Assembly (NCBI GenBank): GCA_051294905.1
Contig: CM119371.1
Location: 27,282,001-27,346,000, forward strand
DNA length: 64,000 bases
Origin: Botryllus schlosseri
Taxonomy: Eukaryota
Reading direction: 5' to 3'
A program made the translations under genes and the position numbers. Positions 29,006 to 64,000 of this stretch are shown in pieces (positions within the stretch are counted from its first letter, which is position 1; each line of letters begins with the position of its first letter). The notes beneath the pieces were generated by a model. It did no database searches. It was not told the DNA's origin and saw only the letters and a list, made by a program, of their open reading frames with translations.

Positions 29006-29028
29006 GTTATTACCCGGATGGAAAAGCT

Positions 29029-37766: not shown

Positions 37767-37894
37767 AATATGTCAAAGGTACCACGTGCGTCACCAATTA
37801 TATGATACCAAGAGATATTTCTCACGTCAAATACTTACCTCACAGGCACATTGTAATTGTAACACAAATTTGTGACATTTTTAATGCATACCAG

Positions 37895-38368
37895 CAGGGT
37901 TGTAACCGAGTCACAAGGTTCCGAGTCACAAGTCAATCCTACTTTTATAGTTGTGACTCGAGTCAAGACGAGTCATTTCCAATTCACCACCTAATCAGAG
38001 TCATATTGTTTTAAGTCATTATGTTCACTGATCAGATTTCAGTTCAATCTGGTTCAACCCACTTTTTTCAATCAGCTCTAGTGATATATAATGGCTTCAT
38101 AATATAGTATTTTTACTCGGTTGTAACAGTATCGGTCCCTATTGTCCAAGTATCAGGACTGATAGACGATGTGCCAATAATGTTGTATACTATTCTTCAA
38201 AGGTACATTGAAATGTATGTCTTGGCCGTACTAGTTTCGAGTCATATAACTTGGTTCGAGTCCTGCACAATGACTCGTGTACAAGTAGAGTCAATAAAAA
38301 AATTGACTCGAGTTGAGTCAAATCATTCAACACATTTTCAAGTCATGACTCGAGTCATTATAACCCTG
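37895..38368. mobile_element. Older GACTCGAGTC-family MITE in opposite orientation; paralogous deleted copy 42308-42636
   Basis: Same TIRs as 29029-29612; TSD CATACCAG in both duplication copies. Confidence 0.88.
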
Positions 38369-39624: not shown

Positions 39625-42600
39625 GAACGCGGAACATTTCAGAGTGGTCTTAATTGCCAAGTGCAGTAGCTTTTAAACGGTTCAGGCCCTCCCCATACCT
39701 TCTCTCTTCTCCGGTCGCCTATACGAACCGGATTCTATCCCTGTTGGCGACAAACGTGTGGTCGTCCGCAATGGTATCATTTCATCCTCTGCCAAAATAC
39801 ATACTCGTATCAATTTTGTGATATCAGAATATATCCGGACGACGTCGAATGTATCCATACCGACGTTTTGTTTACTCCAAATGTTGGTGCGTAAAATCGA
39901 GCACTATGAAGTGATACGTAACAACTCAAGAAATGCATTGCAATGTTAAGTATCTTCATTCTATGCGACCGCAATGAAAAGATCAGTTACACTTTATCAA
40001 TTTTTTTTCAATTCTTTATCACTCTATACTAGGACATTACGGGTTTCTATGACAGCGGTGTGGTTCGATAAGTACTTCCCATAAATATCATTTTCGTGAA
40101 TATACTTAGTGCATATCTATGCGCGACATATGATTTGGGTACTGTAATGCTGATACGATAGGGTCACCATATTTTGGAATCGGGAAAGGAGGAAATTTTT
40201 ACCAAATAACAAAAGTTAGTTGATCTAAACTCAAAACAGCGGCTTTTTGCGGAGTTGAGTAAAAAAGATCATTCATTTCGGCTCCATTTTCCGCCCTTTT
40301 TACTTAAATTTGCAGATGTTGACTAAAAAAAAATCGTCACTTCCGTTCAAACCACGAATTTCCCGTTCGAACTGCAATATTAGCTATTGTTCGTCATTTA
40401 TGTCGATTTTCAGTCGTACCTGTTCAGTATCCTAGTTGTAGAATCAGTAACGGAGGACGACTCGCCAAAATGCAGGAGATTTTCGGCGTCCTCGCAGGAC
40501 ATTTAAAAAAACATAAAATAGGAGGACAAATTATCCTAAAGGAGGACGTAGGGTAACCCTATGATATCAAAGGGTGCGAAGCTTCATTTAGTTTGAAAAT
40601 AATGCATCGAAACGTTCATTCTAAAGTGATACATGTGTCTTTTTTGTACCATGTACATAATAACGACAGTCGAAATCGGCTCGACCTATTCGGCTTGAAT
40701 CAGTACAAATAACAATATTATCACTGGTCAACACATATTTTCTGGCCGACAGAGTAAGAGTGGTTTTGGGGGTTCTGATAGGGCACTGATTCGGAATATG
40801 ACCTTATTCTTTCAAATTGGCTCTATTTTTGAAGATAATTCGGATAAAAACTCGGTTCAGTCGTACTATAAAGTTCACAAATTCAATCTACCTGGTATTT
40901 TGACACGCTTAAGAGGGTTTTAAATCAAAATACAACAACATAATTATATTTTGGGATATAAGATTCATCATAATTGGAGACTTTCACGGATATCATGTGC
41001 ATAAATAAACTTCAATCATGTATATAAGTATTTACCCAAATACTCAAAAGAACTTTGCATTAATAGAATCAGTTTCATGTCAACCACCTATTTAAAATTT
41101 AAAATAACCAGTTGGAATATACTATATAGTATTGATAACCTATATTGAAACAAAATCGGTTCTTGTACTATTTTCGGTTTTGAGCAATTCAGGGTAGTTT
41201 TTCGAAAGGTTCCAGCAATAGTCTGCTATAATATGTTCATCGCATCTCCACTGATATCTTTCTCAAGTTGTTTTGATCTATCGGTGGAACCTTTCCCCTT
41301 TCCATTCCCTCTAATCAACAATATTATCGGAAAATACATCAAGATGAGTGAATAGGAAGTGCGATTTAATGCTCATGCTTGCTCCAAGGTTTCCATATGC
41401 AGATACCAATTCTCGGATCAACTGTGGGTAGTTGGGTGCTTTGTGATCTTCCAAAAAAGTTTTGATTACTACATGCTAGAAAGGATGCCATGCAGTGAGC
41501 ACCTTTCTTATTATGAATTTGTAATCCATTGTCCGTATTCGAATCTGAGATCCATCAAAGATTCAAGATTCATGCTTCTCGTTTGATGTGGATATTAGGT
41601 ATACCGGCTTTGTTGGCGTCACGGAAAATCATCATTTTACAAATGAGAAGAGATGAGACGCATATGAGTATTTTAAATAAGCTTTCCAGGGACAAACTTC
41701 ATAGTTTTATACTCCTCTTTCATCTTGGTAGAATGACCAATTGGTACAGGAGAAAATATACTTCCATTGTGCAATTGTACAATTTTTAGGCTTGACAGAC
41801 TGCAATTTTAACAAACGAAGTTCTCGCATCAGGTCATGTTAATATTGATTGAATAACTGAGAACGACATGAGTGTTTATCGCAGTCAATTAACCATTTAT
41901 GCGCAGTATAAAAGTAGAAAAATCTGAAAAAAATACTTCCTACCAAGTGAAATAGTCAAGGGTAAATACAGTGATTTAACCCTTTTGAGGGGTATAAATC
42001 TCTTCATTTCTAGAGCCAATCTAGTAAAACTAATGTGATATCCGTGATCAGCAACCTTGAAAACCCCAAAAACGTAAAAGCTAGTCCATTAAGTTTCAAA
42101 GCGTCAAAGTCGCGACGATTATAAAAGCGAGTCAACATAAGATCAGTTCACGAGTGAATATGTCAAAGGTACCACGTTCGTCACCAATTATATGATACCA
42201 CGAGATATTTCTCACGTAAAATACTTACCTCACAAGCAGTCAAATACTTACCTCACAGGCACATTGTAATTGTAACACAAATTTGTGACATTTTTACTGC
42301 ATACCAGCAGGGTTGTAACCAAGTCACAAGGTTTCGAGTCACAACTCAATCCTACTTTTATAGTTGGTTGTAAAATTTCGGTCCTTATTGTCCAAGTATC
42401 AGGACTGATAGACGATGTAGCAATAATGTTGTATACTATTCTTCAAAGGTGCATTGAAATGTATGTCTGACCGTCCTATTTTCGAGTCATATAACTTGGT
42501 TCCAGTCCTGCACAATTACTAGTACAAGTGGAGTCAATAAAAAAATTGACTCGAGTCGAGTCAAATCAAATCAAATCCTTCAACACATATTAAAAAAGGA

Positions 42601-43731
42601 CCGAGTCGAGTCACGACTCGAGTCATTACAACCCTGCATACCAGTGTTCAGCGAGACTACCGAGTGTTAGTGCAACTGACCGAGATTCTCTTCAGCGATG
42701 ATCCGCCTCTGCCTTGGTAGGTCATCCGAGACTGAATCTTCGGATGGGTGACGCGACAGTCGAAGAGTGCTACTTTCACCAACTGAATCAGATCATATCT
42801 TGACGTTAAATTTTTGACAATAGCAATGTATACCAGCTTTCAACCAATACTAGATTTTCAGCTTTTTTAGGCATGGTGAAGTTCATTATTGTAAAGCTGC
42901 GAAACATTTTTATAGTGATGGTGTGAACGTGAGGTTTATGTTCGACTGTTCGTGTTCTGTGTGTGAACCTGTGAAAGTGAAGAGGTTCAAAAACGAACCT
43001 TTATATGTGAAGCTTTTTTATGTATTAATATTTTACAAGTCATTATACCTTCTTTGGGTTGAAATTCTTTACATTTTAACTTCGGATTTTAACTGCGCAT
43101 GGCGCTGGCAGCGTCGAATGAAATTCAGCACGAAGCGAACATGTACCGTGCCAATTTCAAAACTTAATTGCTCGAAACATTGCTCGGAATATTCAGCTTT
43201 TCGTTTGTGAGTCTTCAGTGACATTTTGTGAACTTTGCCCGTAATCACACGATAACAAGAAAGAAGCGCTACATGAAATCAAGTCAGCGAATGGTGCTTG
43301 GTCAACCAATCAATGATTCAAATCAATTAACTTGACATCGCACCCTCAAAGGACAAAAGAAGACATACCCATACGTAGTGTTATTATGGCGGTACATTCT
43401 TTTGCATTCAACTGCCTCTACAATAGAAGGAGATTATTGTGTATTGGCTACGCTGGATTCAATTAAGATCGCGCTGTCTGAAATAACATATTCGATTTTG
43501 AGTAACAGCTTCTTGATGTATACCCTGTGCAATGGTGTTTCTCGAACCCTTGTAGCAATTTCCAAGTGTAGATTCAATATGATCATATATTTTGATGGAT
43601 CGATTTTCTACCTAAACCTAACACAATATTTCCCTACCTAGAGGTTTCATCTCTTTCATTATGACCAGTCCAAATATACCGTACACTGTAAATTAATTTG
43701 GTTGTTTTCGGCATGACCTATATTTCGTGGC
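39625..43731 (+). repeat. Tandem segmental duplication, copy 2
   Basis: Colinear with 33996-39394. Confidence 0.95.
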
Positions 43732-45706
43732 GAATAAAAATATTGATATAGTTAGGTCTCCATGGTATCACCGTTAATATCGTAGCTTTATACAGTATTC
43801 ATTTACTGAAAAACGCCACAAATATATAGTTAGGATTATACTCCTACCCGCCATTTCGTACGGTCGCCTGGTGCGTGTAATTCCCAGCATTGCATATCGC
43901 CGCTCCAGCCAGTCATCTGGTGAAGAAAACGCACAACGTGTGAGATTCCATGCATAGCCAGCGTTCACTAGTTCGATATATATACATGCGCATGAGATGA
44001 AGGGAGATGTATATGTAAATATTCCCGTCTTGAAATATATCCATGCGGATTACCAATATTGAGAAAGTGTGTGTACACTACACTACACTACACTACACAG
44101 GTAGAGGCAGGACAACGCCACCAAGTTCTATCCCATTATGACCAGAGGTTGTGTTTCCAAATGCTTTAACGCTACTTCAAGTGGCAGTTCAAAAGAAGTT
44201 GTACAAGTACACAATTCAGTGGTTTCAAAGAGCAGATATCTGCAGCTAATCGGAAGTGGTTAGTTTCGCGATTGCGGTGTGCTTATTCAAGAACAAAGGA
44301 AATAATAACCACAAATATCTAATTGTCTTAAAACACTTTCAGTTAATTACCGTGATATGGTGTAATTGGTGTATGACAATCTTACTTATAAAGGTGATCC
44401 CAAGTCCTGCTTTCTACTGAACAAAACGCAACTTCAAAAGGGTAGGTAGAAATGGAGGGAGTTTGAACTAGTAACCATTCATGCGTTCTCTCAGAATATT
44501 TTTTCTCGTTTATTGTAAAGCCATAACTACCGAGCAGTGATTACTGTGGCACATACGCTGGAAACAACTGGTCTGGTCTCGACTCCCCCCGTGAGAAATA
44601 CCAATTGTTGATCACTGACCGGAGTTTTCGTCTGACGAACTACTGTCCAATACAATGAATGACGTCGGTCGTCCATGTTGCATGGATTGAATCTCCAGCG
44701 GTGCCGAGCAACCCCCACGTATCGCTGTTGACCACTGAGACGCCGTTGATTCTCGTGTCAGTGTTCTTCTACAGCGGCCTGAATAAATTGACGTCGTCCT
44801 AACTAATATCAGCTAAAAGAATCACACTACAATTATGATACATTGCACTATACACTTGGTGAGCACACCATCGAAACTGGACACCACTAACCCACTTTTA
44901 ACTTTGTGTGGTTACTTTAATGCGGAAGCCAATATCAATGATAATTCCATGATTGCACTCCGTGAATTTGTTACAATGGCATGCTGGCTGAATCTTTCCT
45001 CGCGTAGAAAAAACTTTCAACGTGCGCAAGTTACGGGGTCTCTGACAGAGGTTTTCAGTTTATAGGGGTATCAGAATTGTATCAGAACATATAATGGCAC
45101 ATATTCCATACCCTTCTTGAGTGACCTTTTTTTCGATTCATTCATAAAATTTATAGGATGGCGACTGATGATACAATAGCCAAATCAAGCAAAATTGTTG
45201 CACCAAATAATCATGCAACAACTGAAACATGCCTACATGCAGAGACTCCTCATGCAAAAATCGCCTGTGATGTTTTATCGCAATAACGAGCTATTTGGAA
45301 GTGAAGATATCGATTCACGGGCAATATGTATGTACCCTCGAATTTGTAATTTCGAGCCTAAATTGAAACGTGATTTTATGGCAAAATTTTGAGTTAATAA
45401 TTATTCTTTTATTTTTGACGGTTGCAACCAAACATTCTTCTTTATCTTACTGTAGCTTAGGTTATATCAAACAAAAAGAAAAGTTTGAACACAGTTTTTT
45501 TGAGGGTATGTCTCATTGGACCCGGGCCGTGTGCCTTTGGGACCCACAGGGTAGGGACCGATAATATGTTCGAGAAACTAATTTTTGAAGTCCTTAACTA
45601 TATAGTTTAAAAGTGCCGATATCCATGCATATATGCACCATAGGTAGAGCTTGTATGGAAGTGTTGAGCAAGCAAAAGACCTGCTGTTATCGGCGAAAGA
45701 TTTTAT

Positions 45707-46290
45707 CAGGGTTGTAATGACTCGAGTCATGACTCGACTCGAGTCAGACTCGAGTCACGATTTTCGGATGACTCGACTCGACTCGAGTCATTTTCTCAAA
45801 ATATGGAAATGACTCGACTCGACTCGAGTCAATCTGTGTATTGACTCGACTTGGACTCGAGTCATTGCGCATGACTCGAAGCAAGTCATTGACTCGAGAT
45901 TCAGACGGCGAAGATCGACATTTCATTGTAATTTCGAAGCCAACACACTATTGGGATTTCATTTGTTGGTACTGGTGGTTGAAAATGCGACCAGAAACTG
46001 CTAAAAGTGAGGAAAATTGATATATTATAAATGCGAACCATGCAATATCACCAAACAGAGTCAAAAAAGTGGGTTTAGGAAGACTTTAACTGGAAACTGA
46101 GCAGTCAACACAATGACTTGGACCCGGACTCGAGTCATAATACCATGACTCGGACTCGATCCTCTGTTCGCTGACTTGGACTCGGACTTGACTCGGTGGG
46201 AATTGAAAATGACTCGACTTGACTCGAGTCAAAAATATAAAAGTGAGATTGACTTGTGACTCGGAACCTTGTGACTTGGTTACAACCCTG
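45707..46290. mobile_element. 584-bp GACTCGAGTC hAT MITE (young copy 2)
   Basis: Appears identical to 29029-29612; different TSD GATTTTAT. Confidence 0.95.
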
Positions 46291-46951
46291 GATTTTATGG
46301 CCAGAGATCATATCCCAATTTTTGATCCATAGTTACGACATCTCCCCTATTTCGCACCGAAATATAACTGTATTGAGCACGTGTATCTATATTTCTCAGT
46401 GAGTACGAGGTGATATGAAAGGGGATATTATTTTGATTCGACTGATACCAATGTTATGAATGCGCTGTCACAAAAGAGTGACTTCATCGCCGAAAGTCAC
46501 CACTTTGTCTACTTACACCTTAAGCGGTTACGCTCCGAACTATTTTCACTCCTTATTAAGGCGATCGTAATACTGCGTCCACACTTTTGATGCTGTGAAA
46601 TAAGAACTGTCGTTGAGAAATACGTTTGAATCCCTTTTATGGGTGTGATCTTCAATTCTCCCGCGAGTACAAATGCGCTTATCTGCAGTATCGTTAGGGA
46701 TTTGTGTTTGACGTGAAAATGAGTGTTACAACTCTGTATGTAGCTTCTCACGACGAGCTGAAAATCTGCCTTCTTGAACTAATGTCCGAGTAATTTTCTT
46801 GCCTTCTTGTAGTGTTGACAGAACTTGAAAATCTCTTGTTTTATGCTTACATAGAATAGCCTTCTTAAAACTATTAAACCAACATAGTGATGATTGTCCA
46901 CATTATTCGCCTCGTTCACGCCGCATTTACTGAATCAAACTATGCACTTAC

Positions 46952-52900: not shown

Positions 52901-53015
52901 GGTGCGTCGTTATCAGCGCCTTTCGGCTCAATACATTCCCCGGCTTTCATACGCCGCAGTTCTTCTTTAGTTACCAGGTTCCTGTGAAGCCGAGTCATTT
53001 CGCGAGTATCGGTAT
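46952..53015 (-). CDS. Host exons of a duplicated multi-exon unit: 53015-52887, 51586-51443, 49488-49360, 48604-48488, 47065-46952
   Basis: AG/GT-bounded phase-1 exons of 129, 144, 129, 117 and 114 nt; paralogous pairs REMTR(L/I)HRNLV and GYR(E/G)KVLACE. Confidence 0.65.
49624..50516. mobile_element. Degenerate Charlie-like hAT non-autonomous element
   Basis: Ends resemble the 406-1140 family (GGGGCCGCCAAACCGTGGCC ... GTGGCCCTC..AAAAGGTTGGTCGCCTC); TSD not confirmed. Confidence 0.5.
50640..51400 (-). mobile_element. Penelope-like retroelement relic (GIY-YIG endonuclease fragment) with a 2x40-bp tandem duplication at 51001-51080
   Basis: SNAVYEYKCDCDNRYVGRKSERLFERIK*H matches the Penelope VY-x3-C-x-C-x3-YVG-x-T-x-R-x-L-x2-R-x2-EH pattern; boundaries approximate. 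Confidence 0.7.
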
Positions 53016-53133
53016 CTGGAATATATGGCTTTTAATGGATTAAAGTGATCAGAAACGCAGAGATCTCAATCGCCATGTAGTCATAGTGTATAGTGTCATA
53101 GTGTAACACTATGCGACCCAAACATTATGTACG

Positions 53134-54494
53134 CAGGGGTTCTCAACTTCCCATGTATAACAGACCGCATTTTAGCAGCAAAAGACGCCGCGGGCCGCAG
53201 ATTTTTATTACCATGTATTTGTTGGCTACTATTAAATTTAAGCTACTGTAGCCTATATTTGCTAGTCGTATACGGGCGTTTAGTATATTGTTATGAATTC
53301 TATGGCAATAATGGACAGCTTTCGTAAGTTCGCAGTTGCTGTTTTATGTGAGAATGTGTTTCTCCCAGCGGCGCATTATGGTAACTTCTTCGTTACTTAG
53401 AGGCCAATATCACTTTGAGCTCTCAGTGATAAGAGAAGTCTGGCGTTTCAGGGTCAGCAATAGTTACTGAAGTCAGCTTTGTCAAGTCGATGTTTTTCGC
53501 TGGTCAATATTCCCTATAATTTTTCACGAGTCTGCGCGCACTCACCAACTCACTGCACGGTCTGTTGCACAGCAGTGCATAAGGACTAAATACAAAAAGG
53601 TCATCACTTCGGATTTTTGTGCGCAGCTCAAATTTTCTGTGCGCAGCGACTGTGTCAGCACTGCGCAATTGCGCACGTGCGAAGCTTAGAGGAAACCCAT
53701 CCCCACGTTTGCCTTGCCAACATTTCCTCTGTAAACATGTCCACTCTGATAAAATGCACCCAGATAATTAGCTATGCAACGTCTGTGGAATCGATGGATT
53801 CGTCCAATGCTAGGCTAATATGGTCTACGCGGCGACGTGTAATAAGAGATCGACTGACATTGCTGCTACTCTTTTGATCACGGTTGCCTCATACAACCGT
53901 AGCTTTGAAATTTGTCATGTGATGGTATCATTGATGCTAAGTTGTGGAAACGGCGAATATTCGCACAGTATGTTATATTTTTTTTTTGGAATTACGCCTT
54001 CTCTAGCAGATTGCCTTGGTTTAGCGATATTACAACGAGTCTGTAACGTCGTCGGCAATTTTAACAATGCCTCGAAATATGGATTGTTCGGCTTGAGACA
54101 TAGCTAGCAACGTTTTTCAAGATCAGGCGATATGCATAACTCCGAAAGAAACATTCGGTACATCATTTTAAGCTTCTACCCTTTGTTACGACAATTGTTC
54201 TTCGACAAATATGACAAATCGGATTTCCATTTGTATCGGAGAAAGTAAAATAATTTTTTCACGCAGTGTGTTACAAACACAGTTGTCGCCGTTTAATTTC
54301 CCGTTCCTTTTTCTTGCTTCTGTTCAAACCATTCTCAGTGAGTGAAACACTCTTCAAAAGTGTACTGGAAACGCAGCGGGATTCTCAACCCGAGTCCAAA
54401 GAAGAATGCCAATTTAAAAAAATATAAACTCGAGAATATCTCAAGAAACCATAACACATCAAAGAATGAGTATTCAAACGACAATAGAGACGGT
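53134..54494 (-). pseudogene. Degenerate Buster/Charlie-type hAT transposon (GTF2IRD2/EPM2AIP1-like transposase relic), apparently interrupted by the Polinton
   Basis: TIR-like CAGGGGTTCTCAAC at 53134; minus-strand ISLALDESIDSTDVA*LIIWVHFI (53820-53748; cf. SLALDESTD..D.AQL) and YFTFSDTNGNPICHICRR zinc finger (~54250-54200); no partner TIR before 54495. Confidence 0.8.
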
Positions 54495-54652
54495 AGTAGT
54501 GTAATTGTGGTCCCGTGATTCGTAAAATACCGGAAACAAGAATGTTGCATTTCGGAAGTCAGAAACGGTGCATTTTGAGCTAGCTAGTGGTCGAAAATCG
54601 GCCTATGGAGCTTCGAAAAAGCGTCATTGTGCGCTTCCCGCGATCGATTTTG

Positions 54653-54915
54653 AAAACAGGTGTTTTAATGCGAAGTGACCTACATATTCTGCGGAGACAA
54701 ATGACTATGGTATCCTGTCCACTGAAATCACTACGCGAATTGCTTCCCGTGGAACAGGTTGGACTAGAAGCAATCCGTGAGCGTAAAACAGGTGTTTTAA
54801 TGCGAAGTGACCTACATATTCTGCGGAGACAAATGACTATGGTATCCTGTCCACTGAAATCACTACGCGAATTGCTCCCCGTGGAACAGGTTGTCGAAAA
54901 GCAATCGTGAGCGTA
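54653..54915 (+). repeat. 2 x 132-bp subterminal tandem repeat of the Polinton
   Basis: AAAACAGGTGTTTTAATGCG... at 54653 and 54785, nearly identical over the first ~108 bp. Confidence 0.95.
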
Positions 54916-55045
54916 CACAATCCGTAGCAAATACAACCGCTCAGGGCAAAACTGGCTCACTGTGTTAAGTATATCACGAATCACATATGACACGAAAATA
55001 TGCATCAACCATTGTGTATTGTGAAACAGTAGACACACATACATA

Positions 55046-55642
55046 TCATTCTTGTAACTCTAGAATTCGAGTTAACTGGTCAATCTTTAATCTTCCATCC
55101 TGATTTTTGACGCGCGTTAGTGCATACTTTCTCCCTTTTTTTAAACCAGGCGAGGTCCATTGATCGAGTTTGACAGTTCCGGTGTCATCGCTTAACGTAA
55201 AACTATGTAGTTTGAGGTCTTCGCCATTGACGGGGATGGATTTTTCCTCATGGTCGGTACATATCGCATTGATTGAAATATATTTTTCGCTGCCTATATT
55301 GTTACAGCTTACAACGGCGTATTCGTCTGGGGTGTGTTTTGATCTGCCATGAATAGTAACAGACGAACTGCGACCGAGTAGCAAAGTAGGTTCCCCTGAA
55401 AACTTATCGAGTCGAGCCCAGGCTGTTTTGATGAGTACTCGCTTCCGTTTCCTAAAAGCTTTTTCGATGGCTTTGAACAGTTCTTGGTTGAAACAAGTGA
55501 AGGGTATAGTATTGTTCTCGTTGTCTATAAATACACCTTTCAGGTAACTACTAACGAGCCCCTTTTTCGGGGAGGAAACAAACTTTACTGCAAGCCGCAG
55601 GTCCGATGATTTTCCAATGGCCAATCCTTGTATACTCTCCAT
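55046..55642 (-). CDS. Putative tandem OB-fold (RPA-like) ssDNA-binding protein, 198 aa
   Basis: FTLSDDTGTVKLDQW matches the OB-fold L-x-D-x-T-G-x-I-x-L-x-x-W motif; N-half has analogous FIDNENNTIPFTCF; TATAAAA ~45 nt upstream. Confidence 0.7.
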   Translation of the reverse strand: MESIQGLAIGKSSDLRLAVKFVSSPKKGLVSSYLKGVFIDNENNTIPFTCFNQELFKAIEKAFRKRKRVLIKTAWARLDKFSGEPTLLLGRSSSVTIHGRSKHTPDEYAVVSCNNIGSEKYISINAICTDHEEKSIPVNGEDLKLHSFTLSDDTGTVKLDQWTSPGLKKGRKYALTRVKNQDGRLKIDQLTRILELQE

Positions 55643-55686
55643 TGCTATGATGTCCAGATAATGATCATTGTCGCGGGTTACTCGTA

Positions 55687-55709
55687 TTTTATAGACCTAG
55701 TCACGTGAC
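55687..55709 (-). promoter_or_regulatory. Candidate promoter of the OB-fold gene: palindromic E-box GTCACGTGAC and TATAAAA
   Basis: GTCACGTGAC at 55700-55709; minus-strand TATAAAA at 55693-55687. Confidence 0.5.
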
Positions 55710-56170
55710 CATAAACGCGTAGTTACTCGGTTTAGAAGTTTGATGAATCGCCTGAACAGACTTGGTTTGAAATAATCCTTGCAGGAATTCTGTAAATAAA
55801 ATCATAGTGATAGTTTTATGATTGTGTAGTCTGAAATTCAGCATACCCAATCATTTGTCAGTGAGATAAAGTGTGTATTCAAGAATTTCGATGATACATC
55901 TGTGTACAATGAGATAGTATGAACATCACTTTTCATAGCTGCGATCGCTACAATGCACATAACACCATTCCAGTCCACACCGTACCCCAGAATCGCGTTG
56001 GTTAATGATGTGAAATCACATTTTTCGATGCTCTCAACAATTTGATCAGATATGTATAAATCAACGATATCGTGAACCAACTGTTCTGTTTCGCTCAAAT
56101 CAGGGACAGGTAAATGGTGATGGTGAAGTAGATAATTTTCTATAATCACTCGGGTATAAGTTGAGTCCAT
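55701..56170 (-). CDS. Putative viral Bcl-2-like protein, predicted two exons (56170-55847, 55790-55701), 137 aa
   Basis: BH4-like TRVIIENYL, BH1-like ILGYGVDWNGVMCIVAIA, BH2-like FISLTNDW|NSCKDYF after removing a 56-nt GTATGC...TTTTATTTACAG intron. Confidence 0.6.
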
Positions 56171-56298
56171 ATTGTGTAGTTACTGACAATAAAAACTGTG
56201 AAAATTCCGGTAATTAAGTGATCGTACATCGGAAATTAGAATGAATAAAAGGTTGTTATAATAAACAGAGTAACACGATATGAAATAGGAAGAAGGTG

Positions 56299-56336
56299 CG
56301 CGTGGCGGGAAAGAGGAAGTAGTTCTGAATAAATAG
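56299..56336. promoter_or_regulatory. Candidate bidirectional promoter: E2F-type GGCGGGAAA, ETS-type GAGGAAGT, TATA-like AATAAATA
   Basis: Motifs at 56304-56312, 56313-56320 and ~56328, between divergent ATGs at 56170 and 56422. Confidence 0.4.
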
Positions 56337-56421
56337 GTCCTCAGTAAACTGGTAAATCCCACTCGCTCATACCGAATATCATCCGTTGATCAGTATACCT
56401 CGATTTTAATTTGTGTTAATC

Positions 56422-57309
56422 ATGGCCCAGGCTCAGTTGAACAGATTTAATACCCTCGGGTATGAACCTAATTCTTTTGAACTACAATTTGAAGAGGATG
56501 CAGATATTTTGGAGGCCCTCCTACCCGAAGACCTCGTTGCTTCAACGACAGAGGTCGTTGAGTGTGATTCCACGACCCCTATCGAAAACCAACCGCCTCA
56601 CCGTGACATCACATTACAGGCATGGCTGGAATCGCGTGGTTCGAACCAAGTTGCGGTTGACAACCCGACAACCTCGGGTTCGAACTTACCCCTTCCAGAT
56701 GAACCGACAACTTCAGCTGTGTTACCAGTTGAGAAACCGTCAACTCCTCGTAAGATTTTTCCAAAATCTAGAGTTCGATCCGCGGTACCATCTGACAAAC
56801 CGACGACCTCTCGAAGGTTATTTTCTGGCCTACCAAAACCACAGATCCCAATCGAGAAACCATCAAGTTCTAGAAAGCGAGATGTACCCACAACCTCGCA
56901 ACAAACCAGTGCACCTCCGTGTAAAAAGATATGTCTCTCTAAATCGAAACAAAAAACTTTGGTTCTTAACCAGGAGAAACTCAGCGAGGGTGAAGATCGG
57001 CCGAAGACATCGCGAGGGAGACGACAAGAGGAGAAGATATGTCTGTACACCGCCAACAAAATTCGAGACCATCTCAAGACTCTTGAAGTGGTCAGACCAC
57101 ACCTAGGCGTGATTCTAGGTTTAATTGATTCCCTTACAGAAAAGAAGAAACCTTCCCTACAGAAAATCATTCTTGAAATAAAAAAGCTATTGGCTTCGGC
57201 TATTGAACGCAGTGATCTTGATCAGATTCAAAACCAACTGAACGATGCAACCAACCAATTCCTGAACCAGCTCTTAACAATTAGAACCACCTTGAAATAT
57301 AATTTGTGA
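56422..57309 (+). CDS. Polinton accessory protein (~295 aa): acidic N-terminus, disordered P/S/T-rich middle, basic NLS-like segment, helical C-terminus
   Basis: Long open frame, first ATG at 56422; repeated PTTS/PSSS/PKTS; PPCKK; leucine-periodic C-terminus. Confidence 0.8.
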   Translation: MAQAQLNRFNTLGYEPNSFELQFEEDADILEALLPEDLVASTTEVVECDSTTPIENQPPHRDITLQAWLESRGSNQVAVDNPTTSGSNLPLPDEPTTSAVLPVEKPSTPRKIFPKSRVRSAVPSDKPTTSRRLFSGLPKPQIPIEKPSSSRKRDVPTTSQQTSAPPCKKICLSKSKQKTLVLNQEKLSEGEDRPKTSRGRRQEEKICLYTANKIRDHLKTLEVVRPHLGVILGLIDSLTEKKKPSLQKIILEIKKLLASAIERSDLDQIQNQLNDATNQFLNQLLTIRTTLKYNL

Positions 57310-57520
57310 TTCAGTGTAATGTATTTATTGTGTGAATGTGAATGTTCATGTGATGTGTATGAAATTACAGATAATAGGCTTACAAACGATCTTAAATCGT
57401 GAACACTAGATGGTGCTCGCACTAGATTAATCTCGACGCAGCCAAATCGGTCTTTTCCACCTGGACGCCGCAGCGAGAGGATGTGAAATCTGCGCTCGTG
57501 AATATATTACCAATCCACGT

Positions 57521-57817
57521 GTAAGTATACACTGATCTTATTCAATAAACCAAAAGTTTGTGTTAACGTGATGTTTTCTTGCTTCATCGAAACAGAGAAA
57601 GAGAAGAATCAACCCCAATCATCGAACTTATTGCATCGGTGAGTTCTCTGTTTTTACTACCTTAAGTTGGTGAACATAATTTTGAGGAAGGTTGTTTCTT
57701 TGCTTACCAGGTGAAAAAGAACTCAAGATTTCAAGAGAAAAAATATAAGTAAGTATTACTATCTCGTTGATTACTAGAATACAGAGTGTGAAATTGAAAT
57801 CGAATTCAATGTTACAG
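57521..57817 (+). other. Three predicted short introns (57521-57595, 57639-57710, 57749-57817) upstream of polB
   Basis: Donors GTAAGT, GTGAGT, GTAAGT alternate with CAG acceptors at 75/72/69-nt spacing; last acceptor abuts the ATG at 57818. Confidence 0.6.
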
Positions 57818-60800
57818 ATGAGCCGTCGCAGAAGACACCGTATCCGTGAGGAAGATGAATTTCCACCAGATATTGGTGATGAACGTCAAGAAATTTTAAC
57901 ACAGAACTGGCAAGCCATAAAATCGTATGTAGCAAACATAGGCAGATCTCGAGTGGTGTACAATATTCGGATTATAAATCGTCAACTCTTGGCTGTTCGC
58001 GAGGACATTGAAGCGATATTCTTCTCTGAATCATATAGATTTAAAGTCAACTATTCATATGGCTGTATCCTATACCACACCGAGACTCTGAGATATCGTT
58101 ATTTTCATGCATCGTCAAATATCGATCGTGTTCTGGATATGCCATTGGCTATTTCGTCATTGATACAGTTTGAAAAATTTGTAGAATCCATTAAATTGGA
58201 AACTGCATTTGATGTATTGCGTAAAGCCCGACCTGATACTAAATCACAACCTGTTTGTCTAACAAATATACAGTTTTACATATTCCCTAGTGATCGGTTA
58301 TTGATAGGGTGTGCTGATGTTAAACTTCCTCTGTGGCTTACAAAATCGAAATGTGTCTTGACACTACTTTACGATAAAAATCGTAATCGGTATAATGATA
58401 ATCTGTGTGTATTTCGTTGCATTGGACACTCACTCGATCGTGATGCGAAATCACTGGCTCAACAGTATACCCAGGTTTATGGTGTGAACGTTGTTGGTGG
58501 TGTAACTTTTGAGATGTTACCTGACATCGAGACATTGTTTGATGTAGCTATATCTGTCTATCGTAAGACCGATGGTAAAGCTATTGCTGTCCGACGTAGT
58601 ACTTATGTAGCCACTCCTGTTTATTTACACCTCGAAAATTCTCATGCTTGCTTGATAACTCAGATCAATCGATACCTCGAAAGCTATCATTGTGAATCTT
58701 GTGGAAAATTTTTCGATATTGCAACCCATCTGACCAGGCACAACTGCATCACTGAACCTGTCGAGATATTTCCCGGCGGGATATATAGACCACCTTTGAC
58801 GGTATTTGAACGAATGGAGATTGAAGGCATAATTGTCCCAAATCATTTACGTTTTTTCAAATATCGGATTGCCTTCGATATCGAGAGTATGTTTCAACAA
58901 TGTGATTTTGATCCCTCAGCTAAAACGACTTACGAGTGGAAGCATATTCCAATTTCCGTTAGTATATCATCAAATGTAGACGGGTATTTGGAACCACAAG
59001 TAATTGTTTCGAATGGTGACCCAATTCAGTTGTGTGAAGAGATGGTAGAGATTTTTCATACAATTCAGAGTCGATCCTTCAGTCTGTTGCTAGTTGAATA
59101 CCGTCAATATCTCGATTTGTTTGAATCTAAAATCACAGAGATGAAAGTATTAGACCCCTCGGACAAGCCTTTACCATTGGAACGTTTACAAGATGAATTC
59201 ATGTGCTATCTAAGGCAAATACCAGTTATATCTTTTAATGGTGGTAGATACGATTTGAACTGTCTTAAGGTATACTTGCTGCGTTTTTTCGTTGATGAAA
59301 ACTTGAATGTTTTGAAGCGTGGTAACACATTTCTCTCGCTAACTACGAACAGGCTTCGTTTCCTCGATATCGTCAATTACTTGGCACCTGGTTTTTCTTA
59401 TGAAAAATATCTGAAAGCGTTCAAATGTAGTGGTGGAAAGGGTCATTTTCCATATGAATTTCTGACTAGTATTGAACTGTTAGATTACCCTATGCTCCCG
59501 AATCATCAGTCATTTTATAGCTCGATAAAACGTTGTAATATATCGAAAGCTGATTATGAAAACTGCCTCAAGGTTTGGAATGATCATAATATGACATCGC
59601 TTCGTGACTATCTAAAATGGTACAATGCAATTGACACACACTACTTCATTGAAGGCCTAGAAAAGCAATTCGACTCTTTCAAGTCTCAATTTAATGTGGA
59701 TATATTTAAAGAAGCTGTCTCGCTGCCGGGTGTGGTTTCGAGGCATATATTCAATTCCATTCCAAGGTACTTTACCTTGTTCAGTGAAAAGCATAAAGAT
59801 CTAGCTTTACTTTTTCGTGAAAATCTTGTCGGTGGCCCCTCAATCATCTTTAATCGGTATCAAAAAAGGGGGGAAACTCGCATAAAACAACTTTTCTATG
59901 GTAAAGATGCGGAAATAACACAGTATATAACAGGTATGGACTGCAATTCGATGTACTTGAAAGCAGTATCGATTGCGTCACCCGCAGGCTATCCCATTCA
60001 TTGGAAAAGCCTTGATAACGAGTGTTCTAAATTTAAACCGGTTAAGACTGCTCCTACCTTTGGTCATAAAGCACATGAATGGATACAGTACTATTCTCAT
60101 GTTCATGGTGTACATGTCCACCATGCTTTCAACGGGTCTGAAGTAAGAATAGGATCCAAGGGGTACCCTGCAGATGGCTTCTACCGTGACTCATCAGGTC
60201 GAGGCGTTGTGTTATCATTTCTGGGATGTTTCTACCATTCTCACAGTAAATGCCGCTTTTCGTATGACGACCCGACGCGTCGAGAACGAACAGAACGTGT
60301 ACATTCATATTACAGAAGCCTAGGGCATCGTGTTATCACGATGTGGGAATGTCACTGGGATATCTCTAAACGTGAAAACTCCGAAATCACTCAATTTATA
60401 AACAGTGTTCGACCTCGATTGATTCGCAACAAGTCACTAACAGCTCATAAGTTGATTGAAATGGTGTTAGATGGAACGTTCTTTGGGGCTTTACTGGTTG
60501 ATATTTACACTCCTTCCCATTTGAAAAGATATTTTTCTGAACTGTGTCCAATATTCAAAAACACCCTTGTCTCACGTAACGACTTGAAAGGTCACATGAA
60601 GCAATTTGCTATTGATCACAACCTATTACCAACACCAACACGTATGTTGGTTGCATCGTACTATGGCCAGAGAATTCTTTTGTCATCGACATTGATAAAA
60701 TGGTATATAGAACATGGTCTAATTGTTTCACGGGTATACGAGGCAATTGAGTTTACAAAATCAACTTGTTTTGACGGTTTCGCAAAAACTGTCTCTGACG

Positions 60801-61669
60801 CGAGACGCCTAGGGGACCGCGACCAAGACAAGGAAATTATTGCCTTGACTCATAAGCTTTCTGGGAATGTGATATATGGGAAGATGATAATGAACCCCCT
60901 CAAATTTAAACGAACCAGTTTTTGTGATAAAAGTCAATTGCGGAGAAATGTCAATGATCCGTTTTTTGTGAATGTAGAAGACTTGAGCTCCAATTTATAC
61001 GAAGTAACCAAAAGGCCTAAAAAAATAAAATGGAATACTTGCATTCACGTCGGATGGTTCGTCTATCAATACGCGAAGGAGCAATTACTATCGTTTTTTT
61101 ACGACTGTCTCTGTGCGTACTTTGATGACAGGAAATGGACTTCCTTAATGTGCGATACTGACTCGATCTACGTCGGGCATTCAGCTTCTTTCGATGATAT
61201 GCTAATCCCAGAAAAAAGATCTGAATTTTATCTGAATTACGAAAAATGGTTCCCACGCTATTTTTGTGACCAACATAGAAATGAGTTCCTGTCCAACCCA
61301 ACCTCATTCGATCGAACGAGACAATGTTGTAAAGATGTCTATGCATACTTTCTACGGGAACCAGGTTTGTTCAAGGTCGAATACGAGGATGGCACTGCAT
61401 TTTGTGGTCTCCAGTCGAAAAATTACTTTTGTGATGGTCCAAAACAAAAGTATGCCTCGAAAGGTCTTCAGAAATCTGGTCAAGTAAATTTTGAAGCATT
61501 CCTTGAAGTATTGACATCTCAAAAACCTATGGGGGGTCATAATAGAGGTTTCAGAGTTCATAATAATGGTATTTACACGTACCAGCAGCATCGCGATACC
61601 TTGTCTTATTTTTACGCCAAGCGTCATGTTCTGGACGATGGCGTCACCACTATTCCGTTGAATGTGTAA
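57818..61669 (+). CDS. polB: Protein-primed family B DNA polymerase (N-terminal/terminal-protein region, vOTU-like domain, Zn finger, 3'-5' exonuclease, Vsr-like insert, polymerase)
   Basis: Exo motifs FDIE, FNGGRYD, KGHFPY, YNAID; GGPS, DCNSMY, KLSGNVIYGK, DTDS; frame open from 57767, likely start ATG 57818 (alternative 57809). Confidence 0.97.
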   Translation: MSRRRRHRIREEDEFPPDIGDERQEILTQNWQAIKSYVANIGRSRVVYNIRIINRQLLAVREDIEAIFFSESYRFKVNYSYGCILYHTETLRYRYFHASSNIDRVLDMPLAISSLIQFEKFVESIKLETAFDVLRKARPDTKSQPVCLTNIQFYIFPSDRLLIGCADVKLPLWLTKSKCVLTLLYDKNRNRYNDNLCVFRCIGHSLDRDAKSLAQQYTQVYGVNVVGGVTFEMLPDIETLFDVAISVYRKTDGKAIAVRRSTYVATPVYLHLENSHACLITQINRYLESYHCESCGKFFDIATHLTRHNCITEPVEIFPGGIYRPPLTVFERMEIEGIIVPNHLRFFKYRIAFDIESMFQQCDFDPSAKTTYEWKHIPISVSISSNVDGYLEPQVIVSNGDPIQLCEEMVEIFHTIQSRSFSLLLVEYRQYLDLFESKITEMKVLDPSDKPLPLERLQDEFMCYLRQIPVISFNGGRYDLNCLKVYLLRFFVDENLNVLKRGNTFLSLTTNRLRFLDIVNYLAPGFSYEKYLKAFKCSGGKGHFPYEFLTSIELLDYPMLPNHQSFYSSIKRCNISKADYENCLKVWNDHNMTSLRDYLKWYNAIDTHYFIEGLEKQFDSFKSQFNVDIFKEAVSLPGVVSRHIFNSIPRYFTLFSEKHKDLALLFRENLVGGPSIIFNRYQKRGETRIKQLFYGKDAEITQYITGMDCNSMYLKAVSIASPAGYPIHWKSLDNECSKFKPVKTAPTFGHKAHEWIQYYSHVHGVHVHHAFNGSEVRIGSKGYPADGFYRDSSGRGVVLSFLGCFYHSHSKCRFSYDDPTRRERTERVHSYYRSLGHRVITMWECHWDISKRENSEITQFINSVRPRLIRNKSLTAHKLIEMVLDGTFFGALLVDIYTPSHLKRYFSELCPIFKNTLVSRNDLKGHMKQFAIDHNLLPTPTRMLVASYYGQRILLSSTLIKWYIEHGLIVSRVYEAIEFTKSTCFDGFAKTVSDARRLGDRDQDKEIIALTHKLSGNVIYGKMIMNPLKFKRTSFCDKSQLRRNVNDPFFVNVEDLSSNLYEVTKRPKKIKWNTCIHVGWFVYQYAKEQLLSFFYDCLCAYFDDRKWTSLMCDTDSIYVGHSASFDDMLIPEKRSEFYLNYEKWFPRYFCDQHRNEFLSNPTSFDRTRQCCKDVYAYFLREPGLFKVEYEDGTAFCGLQSKNYFCDGPKQKYASKGLQKSGQVNFEAFLEVLTSQKPMGGHNRGFRVHNNGIYTYQQHRDTLSYFYAKRHVLDDGVTTIPLNV

Positions 61670-61718
61670 TGTGGTTGCTTTTGTATATTTCTGATCATGT
61701 TTTTTCTTGTTTTCTCAG

Positions 61719-62261
61719 ATGAATAGTGCAAGTTCTTTCATCAAATCTGTTTTAATAGAGTTAGATCTGGATACTTTGCATAAGCAAACCATTGGCTTGG
61801 AACAGGATTTAACGCAACACTCTATTGTCGGGACCCAGGACGAACCACTCACCGGTACGATATCCGACCGTCATTACAGAGAGCGCCTGAATCAGCTCGA
61901 GCAAAGATGGAACTCTATTCGTGAAATATGCATGGAAGCACTACTACAACTCCGATTCCCAGACCGCAAGCTACCGAGTGATCACCAAGACATTTTCAAT
62001 CGAGCCAAGCTGACGAATTATGTCGTTTTGGGTAAAACCAGGACTTGGATCCCACTTTTCGATAGGGAGGAAAAAAGAGCCAACTTCAAGAATTGTATGC
62101 GTGGACGTTCGTTGCAGTTCTTTCTCGACGACCATCGTGCCGCCAACTCTCGAAAACGATCTCATTCAGATTCGGAAAGCAGTGATGCTGGAACACAACC
62201 TTCTGAATTGAGAAATGATGGCTTCCCCGATAACTATAACTGTGCCGATCCCAATTTGTGA
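61719..62261 (+). CDS. Polinton hypothetical protein A (180 aa), paralog of the next gene
   Basis: ATG directly follows TTTTTCTTGTTTTCTCAG; aligns with the spliced product of 62379-62842. Confidence 0.8.
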   Translation: MNSASSFIKSVLIELDLDTLHKQTIGLEQDLTQHSIVGTQDEPLTGTISDRHYRERLNQLEQRWNSIREICMEALLQLRFPDRKLPSDHQDIFNRAKLTNYVVLGKTRTWIPLFDREEKRANFKNCMRGRSLQFFLDDHRAANSRKRSHSDSESSDAGTQPSELRNDGFPDNYNCADPNL

Positions 62262-62378
62262 TATTTTGCTGTTTAGTGATAATGCTTATCAATTTTAAGT
62301 GTTCAAATGTAATATCTGATCGGGTTAAAGACCAGTTTTGTGCTCGGATGGTTAATGTATTTGTGTTTTGTTTTACAG

Positions 62379-62842
62379 ATGGCTACTAACTACTTAAAAT
62401 CTATACTGCAACATTCCAACCTGGATCAACTACACAACAAGACACTGCGCCGTTATCACGATCGCATTCAAGTCGTCGACATGTATTTGAGACATGATAT
62501 GTCGAATGAATTCTACAATCAATGCATTTCAAGCCAACGCGATGATTTAGAACAATGCTCCCATGGTGAGATAGCATGTATGATTTTGTGTTCTCATGGT
62601 AGACATTTTCACAAATAACTTTCTGACACAACTCTAATACCATTTCATATCTAGACTGGGAACAACTGCTCGACGACCTTCAAAAAGCCTTTGTGACCTT
62701 GCAGCTACCCCTGACGAAATTACAAGCCAGTGATGAGGACTTTGTGACACGCGGCAAACTACTGAATCGAACTTTACTGGGGTTATACATCCCACTTGAG
62801 GATGAATACAACAGTGGGTTTTCCCAGTCCGCAGACTCGTGA
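62379..62842 (+). CDS. Polinton hypothetical protein B (124 aa), two exons 62379-62565 and 62655-62842
   Basis: 89-nt phase-1 intron GTGAGA...CTCTAAT...CTAG; splicing gives a gap-free alignment with protein A across the junction. Confidence 0.8.
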
Positions 62843-62890
62843 TATATATATATAAATACATTCGTTTTTCGAGTTTGAATAAACAGCAAC

Positions 62891-63499
62891 ATGGAATTCA
62901 AGCATCCTTTCTCATTCATCCTATCTGGACCATCTCGTAGTGGTAAAACTACTTTCATCACTAAACTTATCAAGAATGCAGCCTCGATGATCAAACCTAA
63001 TATTTCTAGAATCGTGTACTGTTATAATAATTATCAGAGTATTTTTGAGACCATGCCCCAGGTTGAATTTTACAATGGATTGGAGATTTTGGAAGATCTT
63101 AAATCAAGTAATGAGGATGTATTGATAATAGTAGACGATTTTATGACTCAGACAGAAAAATTGGTAGAATATTTTATACGTATATCGCATCATAATCGAA
63201 AGTCAATAATTTTATGCACGCAGAATTTCCATCATCAGGGTAAAGGGGCTCGCGACCTTAGTCTATCAGCTATGTATGTCTGCCTGTTTAAAAATCCCAG
63301 AGATCAGAACCAAATATCCGTCTTGGGGCGTCAGATGTACCCAAAGTCTAAGTTTCTAACAGAATGTTATAGAGACGCTGTCAAGAGACCTCATTCGTAT
63401 TTGTGCCTGGATCTCACCCAAGAGTGCCCCGACGATAGACGGGTCATGACCAATATATTTCCAGGCGAAACATTGACTATTTACACTCAACCGGTATAA
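62891..63499 (+). CDS. A32/FtsK-like DNA packaging ATPase of Polintons
   Basis: HPF, Walker A GPSRSGKT, Walker B IIVDD, SHH...TQN, LFKNPRD, YLCLDL; TATA-like TATAAATA at ~62851. Confidence 0.95.
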   Translation: MEFKHPFSFILSGPSRSGKTTFITKLIKNAASMIKPNISRIVYCYNNYQSIFETMPQVEFYNGLEILEDLKSSNEDVLIIVDDFMTQTEKLVEYFIRISHHNRKSIILCTQNFHHQGKGARDLSLSAMYVCLFKNPRDQNQISVLGRQMYPKSKFLTECYRDAVKRPHSYLCLDLTQECPDDRRVMTNIFPGETLTIYTQPV

Positions 63500-63529
63500 A
63501 TACCGGAGTGTACGCTGTTCTGGTTCAAA

Positions 63530-63877
63530 ATGACTCCGATTCCGCGCAGAACAAGAGACCATTTGCCAACATTAGCATTCTTGCATCAAGCTAAACCTTC
63601 GATACGCAAGGAGATTTTATCTGGGGCTAGTGAAGGTCTAATACGTTGTATTTGTGAGTGTGCGAAAAATTTATTACACGGAAATATACCGCTATCAGCG
63701 TCCCAGAGAAAACGCTTGTGTTGCCATAGGAACATCTTGAGGAAGCTTACCAGTAAAGACGTTTCATTGCGCCGTAAAAGGACTCTTGTAACTCAAAATG
63801 GTGGGATGTTTATGTCTCTAATATCAAGTATACTCCCAGTAGTTACAGGATTACTCGGGAATTTATTTAAGAAATGA
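63530..63877 (+). CDS. Polinton PW-like basic virion protein with C-terminal GG cleavage-like site and amphipathic tail
   Basis: LIRCICECAKNLLHGNIPL and QNGGMFMSLISSILP resemble PW as recalled; follows the ATPase; TATAAATA at 63495. Confidence 0.8.
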   Translation: MTPIPRRTRDHLPTLAFLHQAKPSIRKEILSGASEGLIRCICECAKNLLHGNIPLSASQRKRLCCHRNILRKLTSKDVSLRRKRTLVTQNGGMFMSLISSILPVVTGLLGNLFKK

Positions 63878-64000
63878 CCCATTTTAAGAAAATCTACGTC
63901 ACGCCGAATCCACTGAACCATGTCGACATTCAAAAACTGAATTCGGACATCGATAAACGTATATATGAAATATTACAAATGGATATTCCACGGGGTAAAA
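63874..64000 (+). CDS. 5' part of the next Polinton ORF (probably PZ-like), truncated by the window end
   Basis: ATG overlaps the PW stop (ATGA); open to the end: MTHFKKIYVTPNPLNHVDIQKLNSDIDKRIYEILQMDIPRGK; assignment rests on synteny and weak resemblance. Confidence 0.6.
   Translation, partial: MTHFKKIYVTPNPLNHVDIQKLNSDIDKRIYEILQMDIPRGK

What the first reader, a model, noticed from the sequence alone, without database searches (positions are those of the whole stretch)
54495..64000. Apparently intact endogenous Polinton with a host-manipulation/replication accessory cassette
Seen: all main ORFs are uninterrupted, unlike the decayed TEs around them. Between the terminus and polB lie three non-core genes (OB-fold, Bcl-2-like, disordered protein), and two more unknown genes lie between polB and the ATPase. 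Known: core Polinton genes are pPolB, ATPase, integrase, protease and capsids. Inference: the left arm resembles an adenovirus early region (E1A-like effector, E1B-19K-like Bcl-2, DBP-like SSB), so this may be a young, virion-competent lineage.
Basis: partly seen in the sequence, partly recalled or inferred. Interest (0 to 1): 0.75.

Follow-up and report, generated by a model that had tools for sequence, protein, structure and literature searches.

The report
Polinton with RPA-like and spliced genes
This is the left half of a multi-copy virus-like transposon (Polinton) in an animal genome; it carries its own RPA-like single-stranded-DNA-binding gene, a fold thought to be absent from viruses that copy DNA this way, and small accessory genes, at least one of which is spliced and transcribed by the host.

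Summary
Real: a Polinton/adintovirus left end (AGTAGT at 54495), an intact 1,286-aa protein-primed polymerase and a packaging ATPase. The right half lies outside the window and no genome was held, so intactness and virion competence stay open. ORF A is a tandem OB-fold, RPA-like SSB, not an adenovirus-DBP-like protein; published surveys say protein-primed viruses lack such SSBs. ORF B's Bcl-2 likeness is not statistically significant, but it has a predicted intron right after its BH2-like tryptophan, the family's conserved junction. ORF C has no E1A motifs. The two 'unknown genes' are paralogues; the second has an 89-nt intron seen in RNA (6 reads plus one contig) and not in DNA. Accessory genes share the core genes' multi-copy depth, so they belong to the element; some copies carry frameshifts. 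Oncoid and Bcl2 genes upstream of PolB are already published, and this scan noted three-mini-exon polymerase leaders before in other genomes. Verdict: new variant of a known kind.

The parts
54489..54494 (.). 6 bp directly left of the terminus; candidate target-site duplication (right copy not in window)
   Evidence: Sequence; 6-bp TSDs define intact Mavericks (PMC8097293); unconfirmed
54495..54950 (+). Left terminus starting AGTAGT and terminal (probably TIR) region, with a 132-bp tandem duplication at 54653-54917; right boundary approximate
   Evidence: (AGT)2 is the commonest Maverick end motif; summed DNA-contig depth 5,000-6,800 here against 387-1,408 in the body; some copies have one unit only (joint 54784->54917)
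55046..55642 (-). ORF A, 198 aa: tandem OB-fold, RPA-like ssDNA-binding protein
55697..55789 (-). Predicted exon 2 of gene B (30 aa, basic, no transmembrane anchor)
   Evidence: In-frame after a phase-0 GT-AG intron; no RNA test
55790..55846 (-). Predicted 57-nt intron starting right after the BH2-like Trp108 of B
   Evidence: same junction as Bcl-2 family exon 2/3 (PMC8998228); same rule hits 0 of 33 ORFs outside the element and 11 of 587 in 80 related loci
55847..56170 (-). ORF B exon 1, 108 aa, all-helical, candidate divergent Bcl-2-fold protein (BH1-like GVDW without the NWGR Gly/Arg)
   Evidence: Helices in a low-confidence model, pLDDT 48; similarity not significant
56422..57309 (+). ORF C, 295 aa: acidic N-terminus, Pro/Ser/Thr-rich basic middle, helical-looking C-terminus; orphan, probably a regulator
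   Evidence: Composition; no LxCxE, CR1 or CxxC; no family; sense reads near its 3' end
57410..57748 (+). Three predicted mini-exons (57410-57520, 57596-57638, 57711-57748) with introns of 75, 72 and 69 nt leading to the polymerase Met at 57818; frame of pPolB but with stops at 57428 and 57746; probably a non-coding or uORF leader, or a zinc-finger relic
   Evidence: 3 GTRAGT donors, 49 of 5,000 shuffles reach 3; phases; not among the 15 joints shown
57809..61669 (+). [quoted passage not shown]
   Evidence: Pfam PF03175 E 2.7e-4, below cut-off; 885 of 7,306 candidates at E<=1e-20; motifs; tree
61719..62261 (+). ORF D, 180 aa orphan, paralogue of E
   Evidence: no family; no relative in 80 loci
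62379..62842 (+). Gene E, two exons (62379-62565, 62655-62842), 124 aa, 89-nt GT-AG intron; most highly read gene of the element in a single-cell RNA run
   Evidence: Joint in RNA-like contig (depth 33.9) and 6 raw reads with 6 starts, 0 in the DNA run; exon 2 vs D E 3e-7, exon 1 vs D E 9e-5
62891..63499 (+). A32-like packaging ATPase, 202 aa
   Evidence: Pfam Pox_A32 E 4.3e-6, above cut-off; relatives in 23 of 80 loci
63530..63877 (+). ORF F, 115 aa, conserved small basic Polinton protein that follows the ATPase in relatives
   Evidence: Hits in 24 of 80 loci; gene order
63874..64000 (+). Start of the next ORF, running off the window; relatives have a 230-310 aa gene here, then the integrase
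   Evidence: Gene order; profile test weak, 3 of 500 shuffles scored higher

Best explanation
The stretch is the left half of an autonomous-type animal Polinton (adintovirus) of a multi-copy family. Shown: terminus, polymerase, ATPase, multi-copy co-amplification of the accessory genes, splicing of E, and host transcripts over E, D, C and weakly B. Inferred mechanism: after excision or infection the element replicates in the nucleus by protein priming and strand displacement; its own tandem-OB protein A coats the displaced single strand, doing the job that non-OB SSBs do in adenovirus and phi29. A divergent promoter between B and C and a spliced leader give an early, host-Pol-II-transcribed set (B, C, D, E, polymerase). 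B is most likely a strongly diverged Bcl-2-fold protein captured from a host gene as genomic DNA (it keeps the family's BH2 intron) that damps cell death; C, D and E are orphan host-modulating or regulatory proteins, D/E arising by tandem duplication. Packaging and virion genes follow to the right, as in relatives.
For: AGTAGT end; pPolB homologues and intact catalytic motifs; Pox_A32; order POL-ATPase-F-(230-310 aa)-integrase in L003, L013, L023, L064, L075; A is RPA-like and basic, net +9, with conserved aromatics; other Polintons carry an RPA-C-like ORF (L005, E 2.7e-6, just under the cut-off) or PC4 proteins (L063) among accessory genes; accessory bins have summed DNA depth 387-859, like core bins 459-1,408; E intron in RNA only; B intron at the Bcl-2 junction; 15 of 27 listed inter-copy differences synonymous against 22% expected.
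Against: No right half, TIR pair or TSD seen. B has no significant similarity to Bcl-2: no Pfam hit, 440 of 2,000 shuffles matched its score on a 2-sequence profile, local alignment 20 of 2,000 against one viral Bcl-2 but 388 of 2,000 against the other, and adding exon 2 did not improve it; its BH1-to-BH2 Trp spacing is 41 against 49-51 in those references. The RNA contig runs unspliced across the acceptors at 61718 and 62378. None of A-E has a relative in 80 related loci, so the cassette is lineage-specific. Frameshifting indels stand in part of the copies. ssDNA binding by A is inferred from fold only.
Confidence: 0.7

Rival explanations
1. Same element, but B is not a Bcl-2 homologue: a small helical orphan whose motif likeness and splice sites are chance, so the 'anti-death' part of the cassette falls.
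For: All quantitative tests are non-significant or mixed; the BH1 Gly/Arg of NWGR are missing; the intron rule was written after seeing B and hits 11 of 587 unrelated ORFs.
Against: The best hhalign segment falls on BH1 (P 0.097); helix layout fits; the predicted donor follows a Trp at the BH2-equivalent place, the family's conserved junction; Bcl2 homologues are known in adintoviruses.
Confidence: 0.35
2. The copy is a decaying or partly deleted Polinton: left half open, right half broken or absent, no longer able to make virions; the accessory genes are transcribed leftovers.
For: Most vertebrate Maverick loci (96%) are degraded; frameshifts at depth 149-328 of 725-1,129 in other copies; two stops in the leader frame; no ATPase or F reads in the single-cell run.
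Against: Every ORF in 9.5 kb is open, including 3.9 kb of polymerase; a 206-nt contig identical to the window has depth 105 against 8.8 for a flank contig; synonymous excess.
Confidence: 0.3
3. A is recently captured cargo (host or microbial RPA fragment) with no role in replication, kept for host manipulation such as hiding ssDNA from sensors, or drifting.
For: Absent from 80 related loci and from viral contigs; closest named hits are archaeal RPA; Mavericks carry intron-bearing host cargo next to the left TIR.
Against: Full-length homologues of the same two-domain size at 54% and 29% identity point to a long-kept family; other ssDNA-binding folds recur in relatives. The genomic context of P0121, P0123 and P0127 could not be read.
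Confidence: 0.2
4. The accessory ORFs are host sequence lying outside the element.
For: No right TIR is available to close the element.
Against: They lie between the AGTAGT end and polB and share the core genes' multi-copy depth.
Confidence: 0.03

Closest known systems
Adintoviruses / animal Polintons (Starrett et al. 2021, PMC8502044; passages, results section part 1 and one supplement searched)
   Same: Divergent PolB with OTU-like region, FtsK/A32 ATPase, accessory genes upstream of PolB, Bcl2 and IAP homologues reported
   Different: No SSB or RPA gene named there ('ssb' 0, 'rpa' 0 in the stored supplement, 'splic' 0 in the text); C lacks the Oncoid motifs; D/E pair between polB and ATPase (1,222 bp gap against -103 to 723 in 13 relatives)
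Vertebrate Mavericks (Barreat and Katzourakis 2021, PMC8097293; passages)
   Same: (AGT)2 end motif, polB-ATPase module, accessory regions flanking the core
   Different: No introns were seen in genes of intact elements there; here one intron is shown in RNA and four more are predicted
VSR-bearing pPolB2 Polintons of marine molluscs and a marine nematode (Jeong et al. 2023, PMC10748475; passages)
   Same: Polymerase with a VSR-like insert (motifs at residues 789-850; homologue P0111 is named VSR by its source)
   Different: No reference pPolB2 was in my tree; nearest named relative is a Styela clava protein
Nematode Mavericks with cargo (Widen et al., 10.1101/2022.07.12.499685; passages)
   Same: Variable region next to the left TIR with intron-bearing captured genes
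   Different: Cargo there is proteases and kinases; here an SSB and a Bcl-2-like gene
Archaeo-eukaryotic RPA / SSB (OB fold)
   Same: Two OB-like domains; sequence hits to archaeal RPA
   Different: Only 198 aa, no zinc finger or trimerisation core; encoded by a protein-primed replicon, a class reported to lack OB-type SSBs (PMC4889955; Bam35/phi29 SSBs only remotely OB-like, PMC8276246)
Adenovirus early region (E1A, E1B-19K, DBP)
   Same: Functional analogy: regulator, candidate vBcl-2 and SSB beside a protein-primed polymerase, with splicing
   Different: No E1A motifs; DBP is not an OB fold; E1B small t appears only at rank 35, E 5.6, in a fold search of a poor model

Membership tests
Polinton/Maverick (adintovirus) | Protein-primed family B polymerase | tested here: met
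Polinton/Maverick (adintovirus) | A32/FtsK packaging ATPase | tested here: met
   Pox_A32 above cut-off; 23 of 80 loci
Polinton/Maverick (adintovirus) | Terminal (AGT)2 or (AG)3 motif | tested here: met
   AGTAGT at 54495, motif; left end only
Polinton/Maverick (adintovirus) | [quoted passage not shown] | not testable with these tools
   Right end outside the window, no genome held
Polinton/Maverick (adintovirus) | rve integrase, adenain protease, major and minor capsid genes | not testable with these tools
   Not in the window; expected to the right from gene order in relatives
RPA/SSB OB-fold proteins (ORF A) | OB-fold sequence or structure similarity | tested here: met
   (25.9 bits, far below the 447-bit equivalog cut-off); supportive but weak:
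RPA/SSB OB-fold proteins (ORF A) | Binds single-stranded DNA | not testable with these tools
   Only inferred from fold, charge and conserved aromatics
Bcl-2 family (ORF B) | Significant match to Bcl-2 profiles or fold | tested here: inconclusive
   No Pfam hit; shallow 2-sequence profile not significant; model pLDDT 48 too poor for fold search
Bcl-2 family (ORF B) | BH1 NWGR signature | tested here: not met
   B reads DWNG at this place; divergent members lacking the Gly exist
Bcl-2 family (ORF B) | Exon boundary after the BH2 tryptophan | tested here: inconclusive
   Predicted phase-0 intron after Trp108; not among the joints shown
E1A / Oncoid proteins (ORF C) | LxCxE, CR1 and paired CxxC motifs | tested here: not met
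   None of the patterns in C (definitions)
Adenovirus DBP (ORF A) | Non-OB DBP fold | tested here: not met
   A is OB-type; DBP is non-OB

The most novel reading that the evidence does not exclude
Animal Polintons have an overlooked SSB slot, filled independently by RPA-derived tandem-OB (this element), RPA-C-like (L005) or PC4-type (L063) proteins, which breaks the rule that protein-primed viruses lack OB-type SSBs; this lineage runs a spliced early programme in host cells, carries a Bcl-2 gene captured as genomic DNA with its ancestral BH2 intron, and supplies the replication kit for the hundreds of palindromic satellites noted in the same genome.
Probability: 0.3. Interest if true: 0.65.

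Novelty: new variant of a known kind. Interest (0 to 1): 0.45.

Why it matters
No accessory replication protein was named for animal Polintons in the papers I searched, and protein-primed viruses are described as lacking OB-type SSBs; a small RPA-like SSB next to an intact polymerase gives a concrete, testable two-protein replication system. RNA-supported splicing shows that ORF-only annotation misreads Polinton accessory genes (one 87-aa 'orphan' is half of a paralogue, another may be a clipped Bcl-2). An ancestral intron in a viral Bcl-2 would show capture from genomic DNA rather than from mRNA. The general idea of an adenovirus-like early cassette is already published, which caps the interest.

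Tried and rejected
No whole genome was held, so copy number, right half and TSD could not be read. Word-index homologue searches for B and A were blank; ESM gave no usable hit for B. Single-sequence AlphaFold models were poor (pLDDT 39 and 48); fold searches for B listed no Bcl-2 protein with meaning. PDB sequence searches for A and B were blank. Viral-contig scans found no relative of pPolB or A. No listed holder run is on record as RNA; bulk RNA run X21 laid 0 reads, no test. Rfam: 0 matches. The 101-154 aa ORFs at 54580-55044 lie in the tandem duplication and have no family: treated as non-genes. A 177-aa left-arm ORF of L040/L049 looked Bcl-2-like by eye but failed the same tests. The three-mini-exon leader was not general among relatives: 3 strong donors within 500 nt upstream in 0 of 24 polymerase starts, 2 donors in 6. 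An alternative splice from a donor in C (56750) into the mini-exons would be in phase by my reading, but is untested. The tree is the quick one, without bootstrap. Term searches for SSB/OB/RPA in five Polinton papers gave nothing relevant; library searches were made; subscription papers and bioRxiv supplements were not visible, and the Starrett supplement was cut when stored.
Full report
Observation. The element begins with AGTAGT at 54495, the commonest Maverick end motif (PMC8097293, passages). Outside the element the longest ATG ORF is 171 aa. The window holds no second copy of the terminus and no integrase or capsid gene, and no genome was held: the right half, the TIR pair and the TSD are untested.

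Core genes. The polymerase has 885 homologues at E<=1e-20 among 7,306 candidates, the best 45% identical, a weak PF03175 hit and intact exonuclease and polymerase motifs plus a VSR-like insert. In a quick tree of 35 rows it groups with two unnamed proteins and a Styela clava protein (SH-aLRT 99), a hint, no more, of a tunicate-associated clade. The ATPase passes the Pox_A32 cut-off. Of 80 related metagenome loci, 23 hit the ATPase and 24 hit F, none hit A to E. Five loci show the order polymerase, ATPase, F, a 230-310 aa gene, integrase; two of them go on to a double-jelly-roll-like gene. The window follows this order with D and E inserted.

Are the accessory genes part of the element? Contigs of a DNA run laid on 53000-64000 give summed depth 387-859 over A to C, 459-1,408 over the polymerase, 574-706 over D/E and 747-891 over ATPase/F, against 8.8 for an identical flank contig. 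The tool warns that this is no copy number, but the accessory genes clearly travel with the core. A 206-nt contig identical to the window has depth 105, so near-identical copies exist; many contigs are 90-95% alike, and frameshifting indels stand in part of the copies at 56021, 56934, 58883, 61019, 62927 and 63042 (12 rows shown, 61 hidden). Of 27 listed differences inside ORFs (from 40 rows shown, 469 hidden), 15 are synonymous against 22% expected without a transition bias. The terminal region is 5 to 10 times deeper than the body, more than two TIRs explain; earlier unchecked notes of this scan report about 54-60 polymerase-bearing loci and several hundred palindromic satellites with Polinton ends in this genome, which would fit, but I could not compare the ends.

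ORF B. No test reaches significance: Pfam none, PDB none, folds none, two-sequence viral Bcl-2 profile 440 of 2,000 shuffles, hhalign P 0.097 on BH1, local alignment 20 and 388 of 2,000 shuffles against the two Pfam-verified references. These are weak tests. The new clue is gene structure: a GT donor follows Trp108, two codons before the stop, and a pyrimidine-rich acceptor 57 nt on opens a 30-aa in-frame exon. Pro-survival Bcl-2 genes end their exon 2 at the BH2 tryptophan (PMC8998228, passages). The same rule, written after the fact, hits 0 of 33 ORFs outside the element and 11 of 587 in related loci. Against: NWGR is not kept, the BH1-BH2 spacing is shorter, and the second exon does not raise the score. 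I put Bcl-2 ancestry at about 0.6.

ORF C. No LxCxE, CR1, CxxC or PxDLS, no family. It is acidic at the start, Pro/Ser/Thr-rich and basic in the middle. A regulator is a fair guess; E1A-like is not supported.

Genes D and E, and splicing. E has a GT-AG intron at 62566-62654 (89 nt). A joint of net 89 nt stands in a contig of a probable RNA run and in 6 raw single-cell reads with 6 starts, and not in the DNA run; the letters at the exon end differ from the window, so a sister copy is the one read. Both exons align to D (E 9e-5 and 3e-7). In about 3% of the single-cell run, reads lie on one strand over 61441-62908 (depth up to 15) and 57037-57403 (3.8), on the other over 55569-55935 (1.3), and none over ATPase or F; read as 3'-end chemistry (my inference) this is sense transcription of D/E, C and B. 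Upstream of the polymerase lie three strong donors (49 of 5,000 shuffles, region chosen after the fact) and predicted introns of 75, 72 and 69 nt; the last acceptor abuts Met 57818, whose N-terminus matches the two closest homologues. The leader is in the polymerase frame but has stops at 57428 and 57746, so it is non-coding, a uORF, or a zinc-finger relic. Acceptor-like YAG also abuts the starts at 57410, 61719 and 62379, against about 2% of all ATGs, yet the RNA contig crosses the last two unspliced. Only 15 of 68 joints were shown, so the four predicted introns are untested. Five relatives show conserved peptide blocks broken by stops and phase-0 donors upstream of polB, and earlier notes of this scan describe three-mini-exon polymerase leaders in other genomes.

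Comparison and novelty. Starrett et al. already describe Oncoid genes upstream of PolB and Bcl2 and IAP homologues (PMC8502044); Widen et al. describe intron-bearing cargo beside the left TIR; vertebrate Mavericks are intronless; a review of viral Bcl-2 does not mention polintons (PMC11209288, term search). The adenovirus analogy is thus known and only functional. What is new here is the RPA-like SSB in a protein-primed replicon, the RNA-supported spliced paralogue pair, and the candidate Bcl-2 gene with its ancestral intron.

Verdict. A new variant of a known kind; interest 0.45. Intactness and virion competence remain open.

Noticed in passing
window 53000-54494: The flank left of the terminus is itself highly repeated DNA (summed depth 7,000-64,000 in the DNA run): the Polinton sits inside other repeats.
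   Followed up: no
window 55688-55707 and 56305-56312: A TATAAA box with a CACGTG E-box just upstream precedes ORF A on the minus strand, and an E2F-like site lies in the divergent B/C promoter (motif names recalled). Single motifs, no significance shown.
   Followed up: no
window 62851 and 63495: TATAAA boxes precede the ATPase and ORF F, suggesting separate late promoters.
   Followed up: no
L005:2388-2867: RPA-C-like OB/zinc ORF in the left arm of another Polinton (Pfam PF08646 E 2.7e-6).
   Followed up: partly
L063:16060-18124 and L062:2123-2755: TBP plus two PC4-type genes in L063; a PC4-looking ORF by eye in L062 without a Pfam hit.
   Followed up: partly
L035, L040, L047, L050, L027, upstream of polB: A conserved multi-exon accessory gene (at least four peptide blocks with phase-0 donors) that ORF callers would split.
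   Followed up: partly
L040:329-859, L042, L049: Conserved 177-aa helical ORF with a C-terminal hydrophobic segment next to the left end; Bcl-2-like by eye, not by test.
   Followed up: partly
window 29028-29614 and 45706-46292: Two 587-bp direct copies, 100% identical, 16.7 kb apart: a very recent insertion or duplication.
   Followed up: no
window 35595-39394 and 40024-43731: Tandem duplication of about 3.7 kb at 84-88% identity.
   Followed up: no
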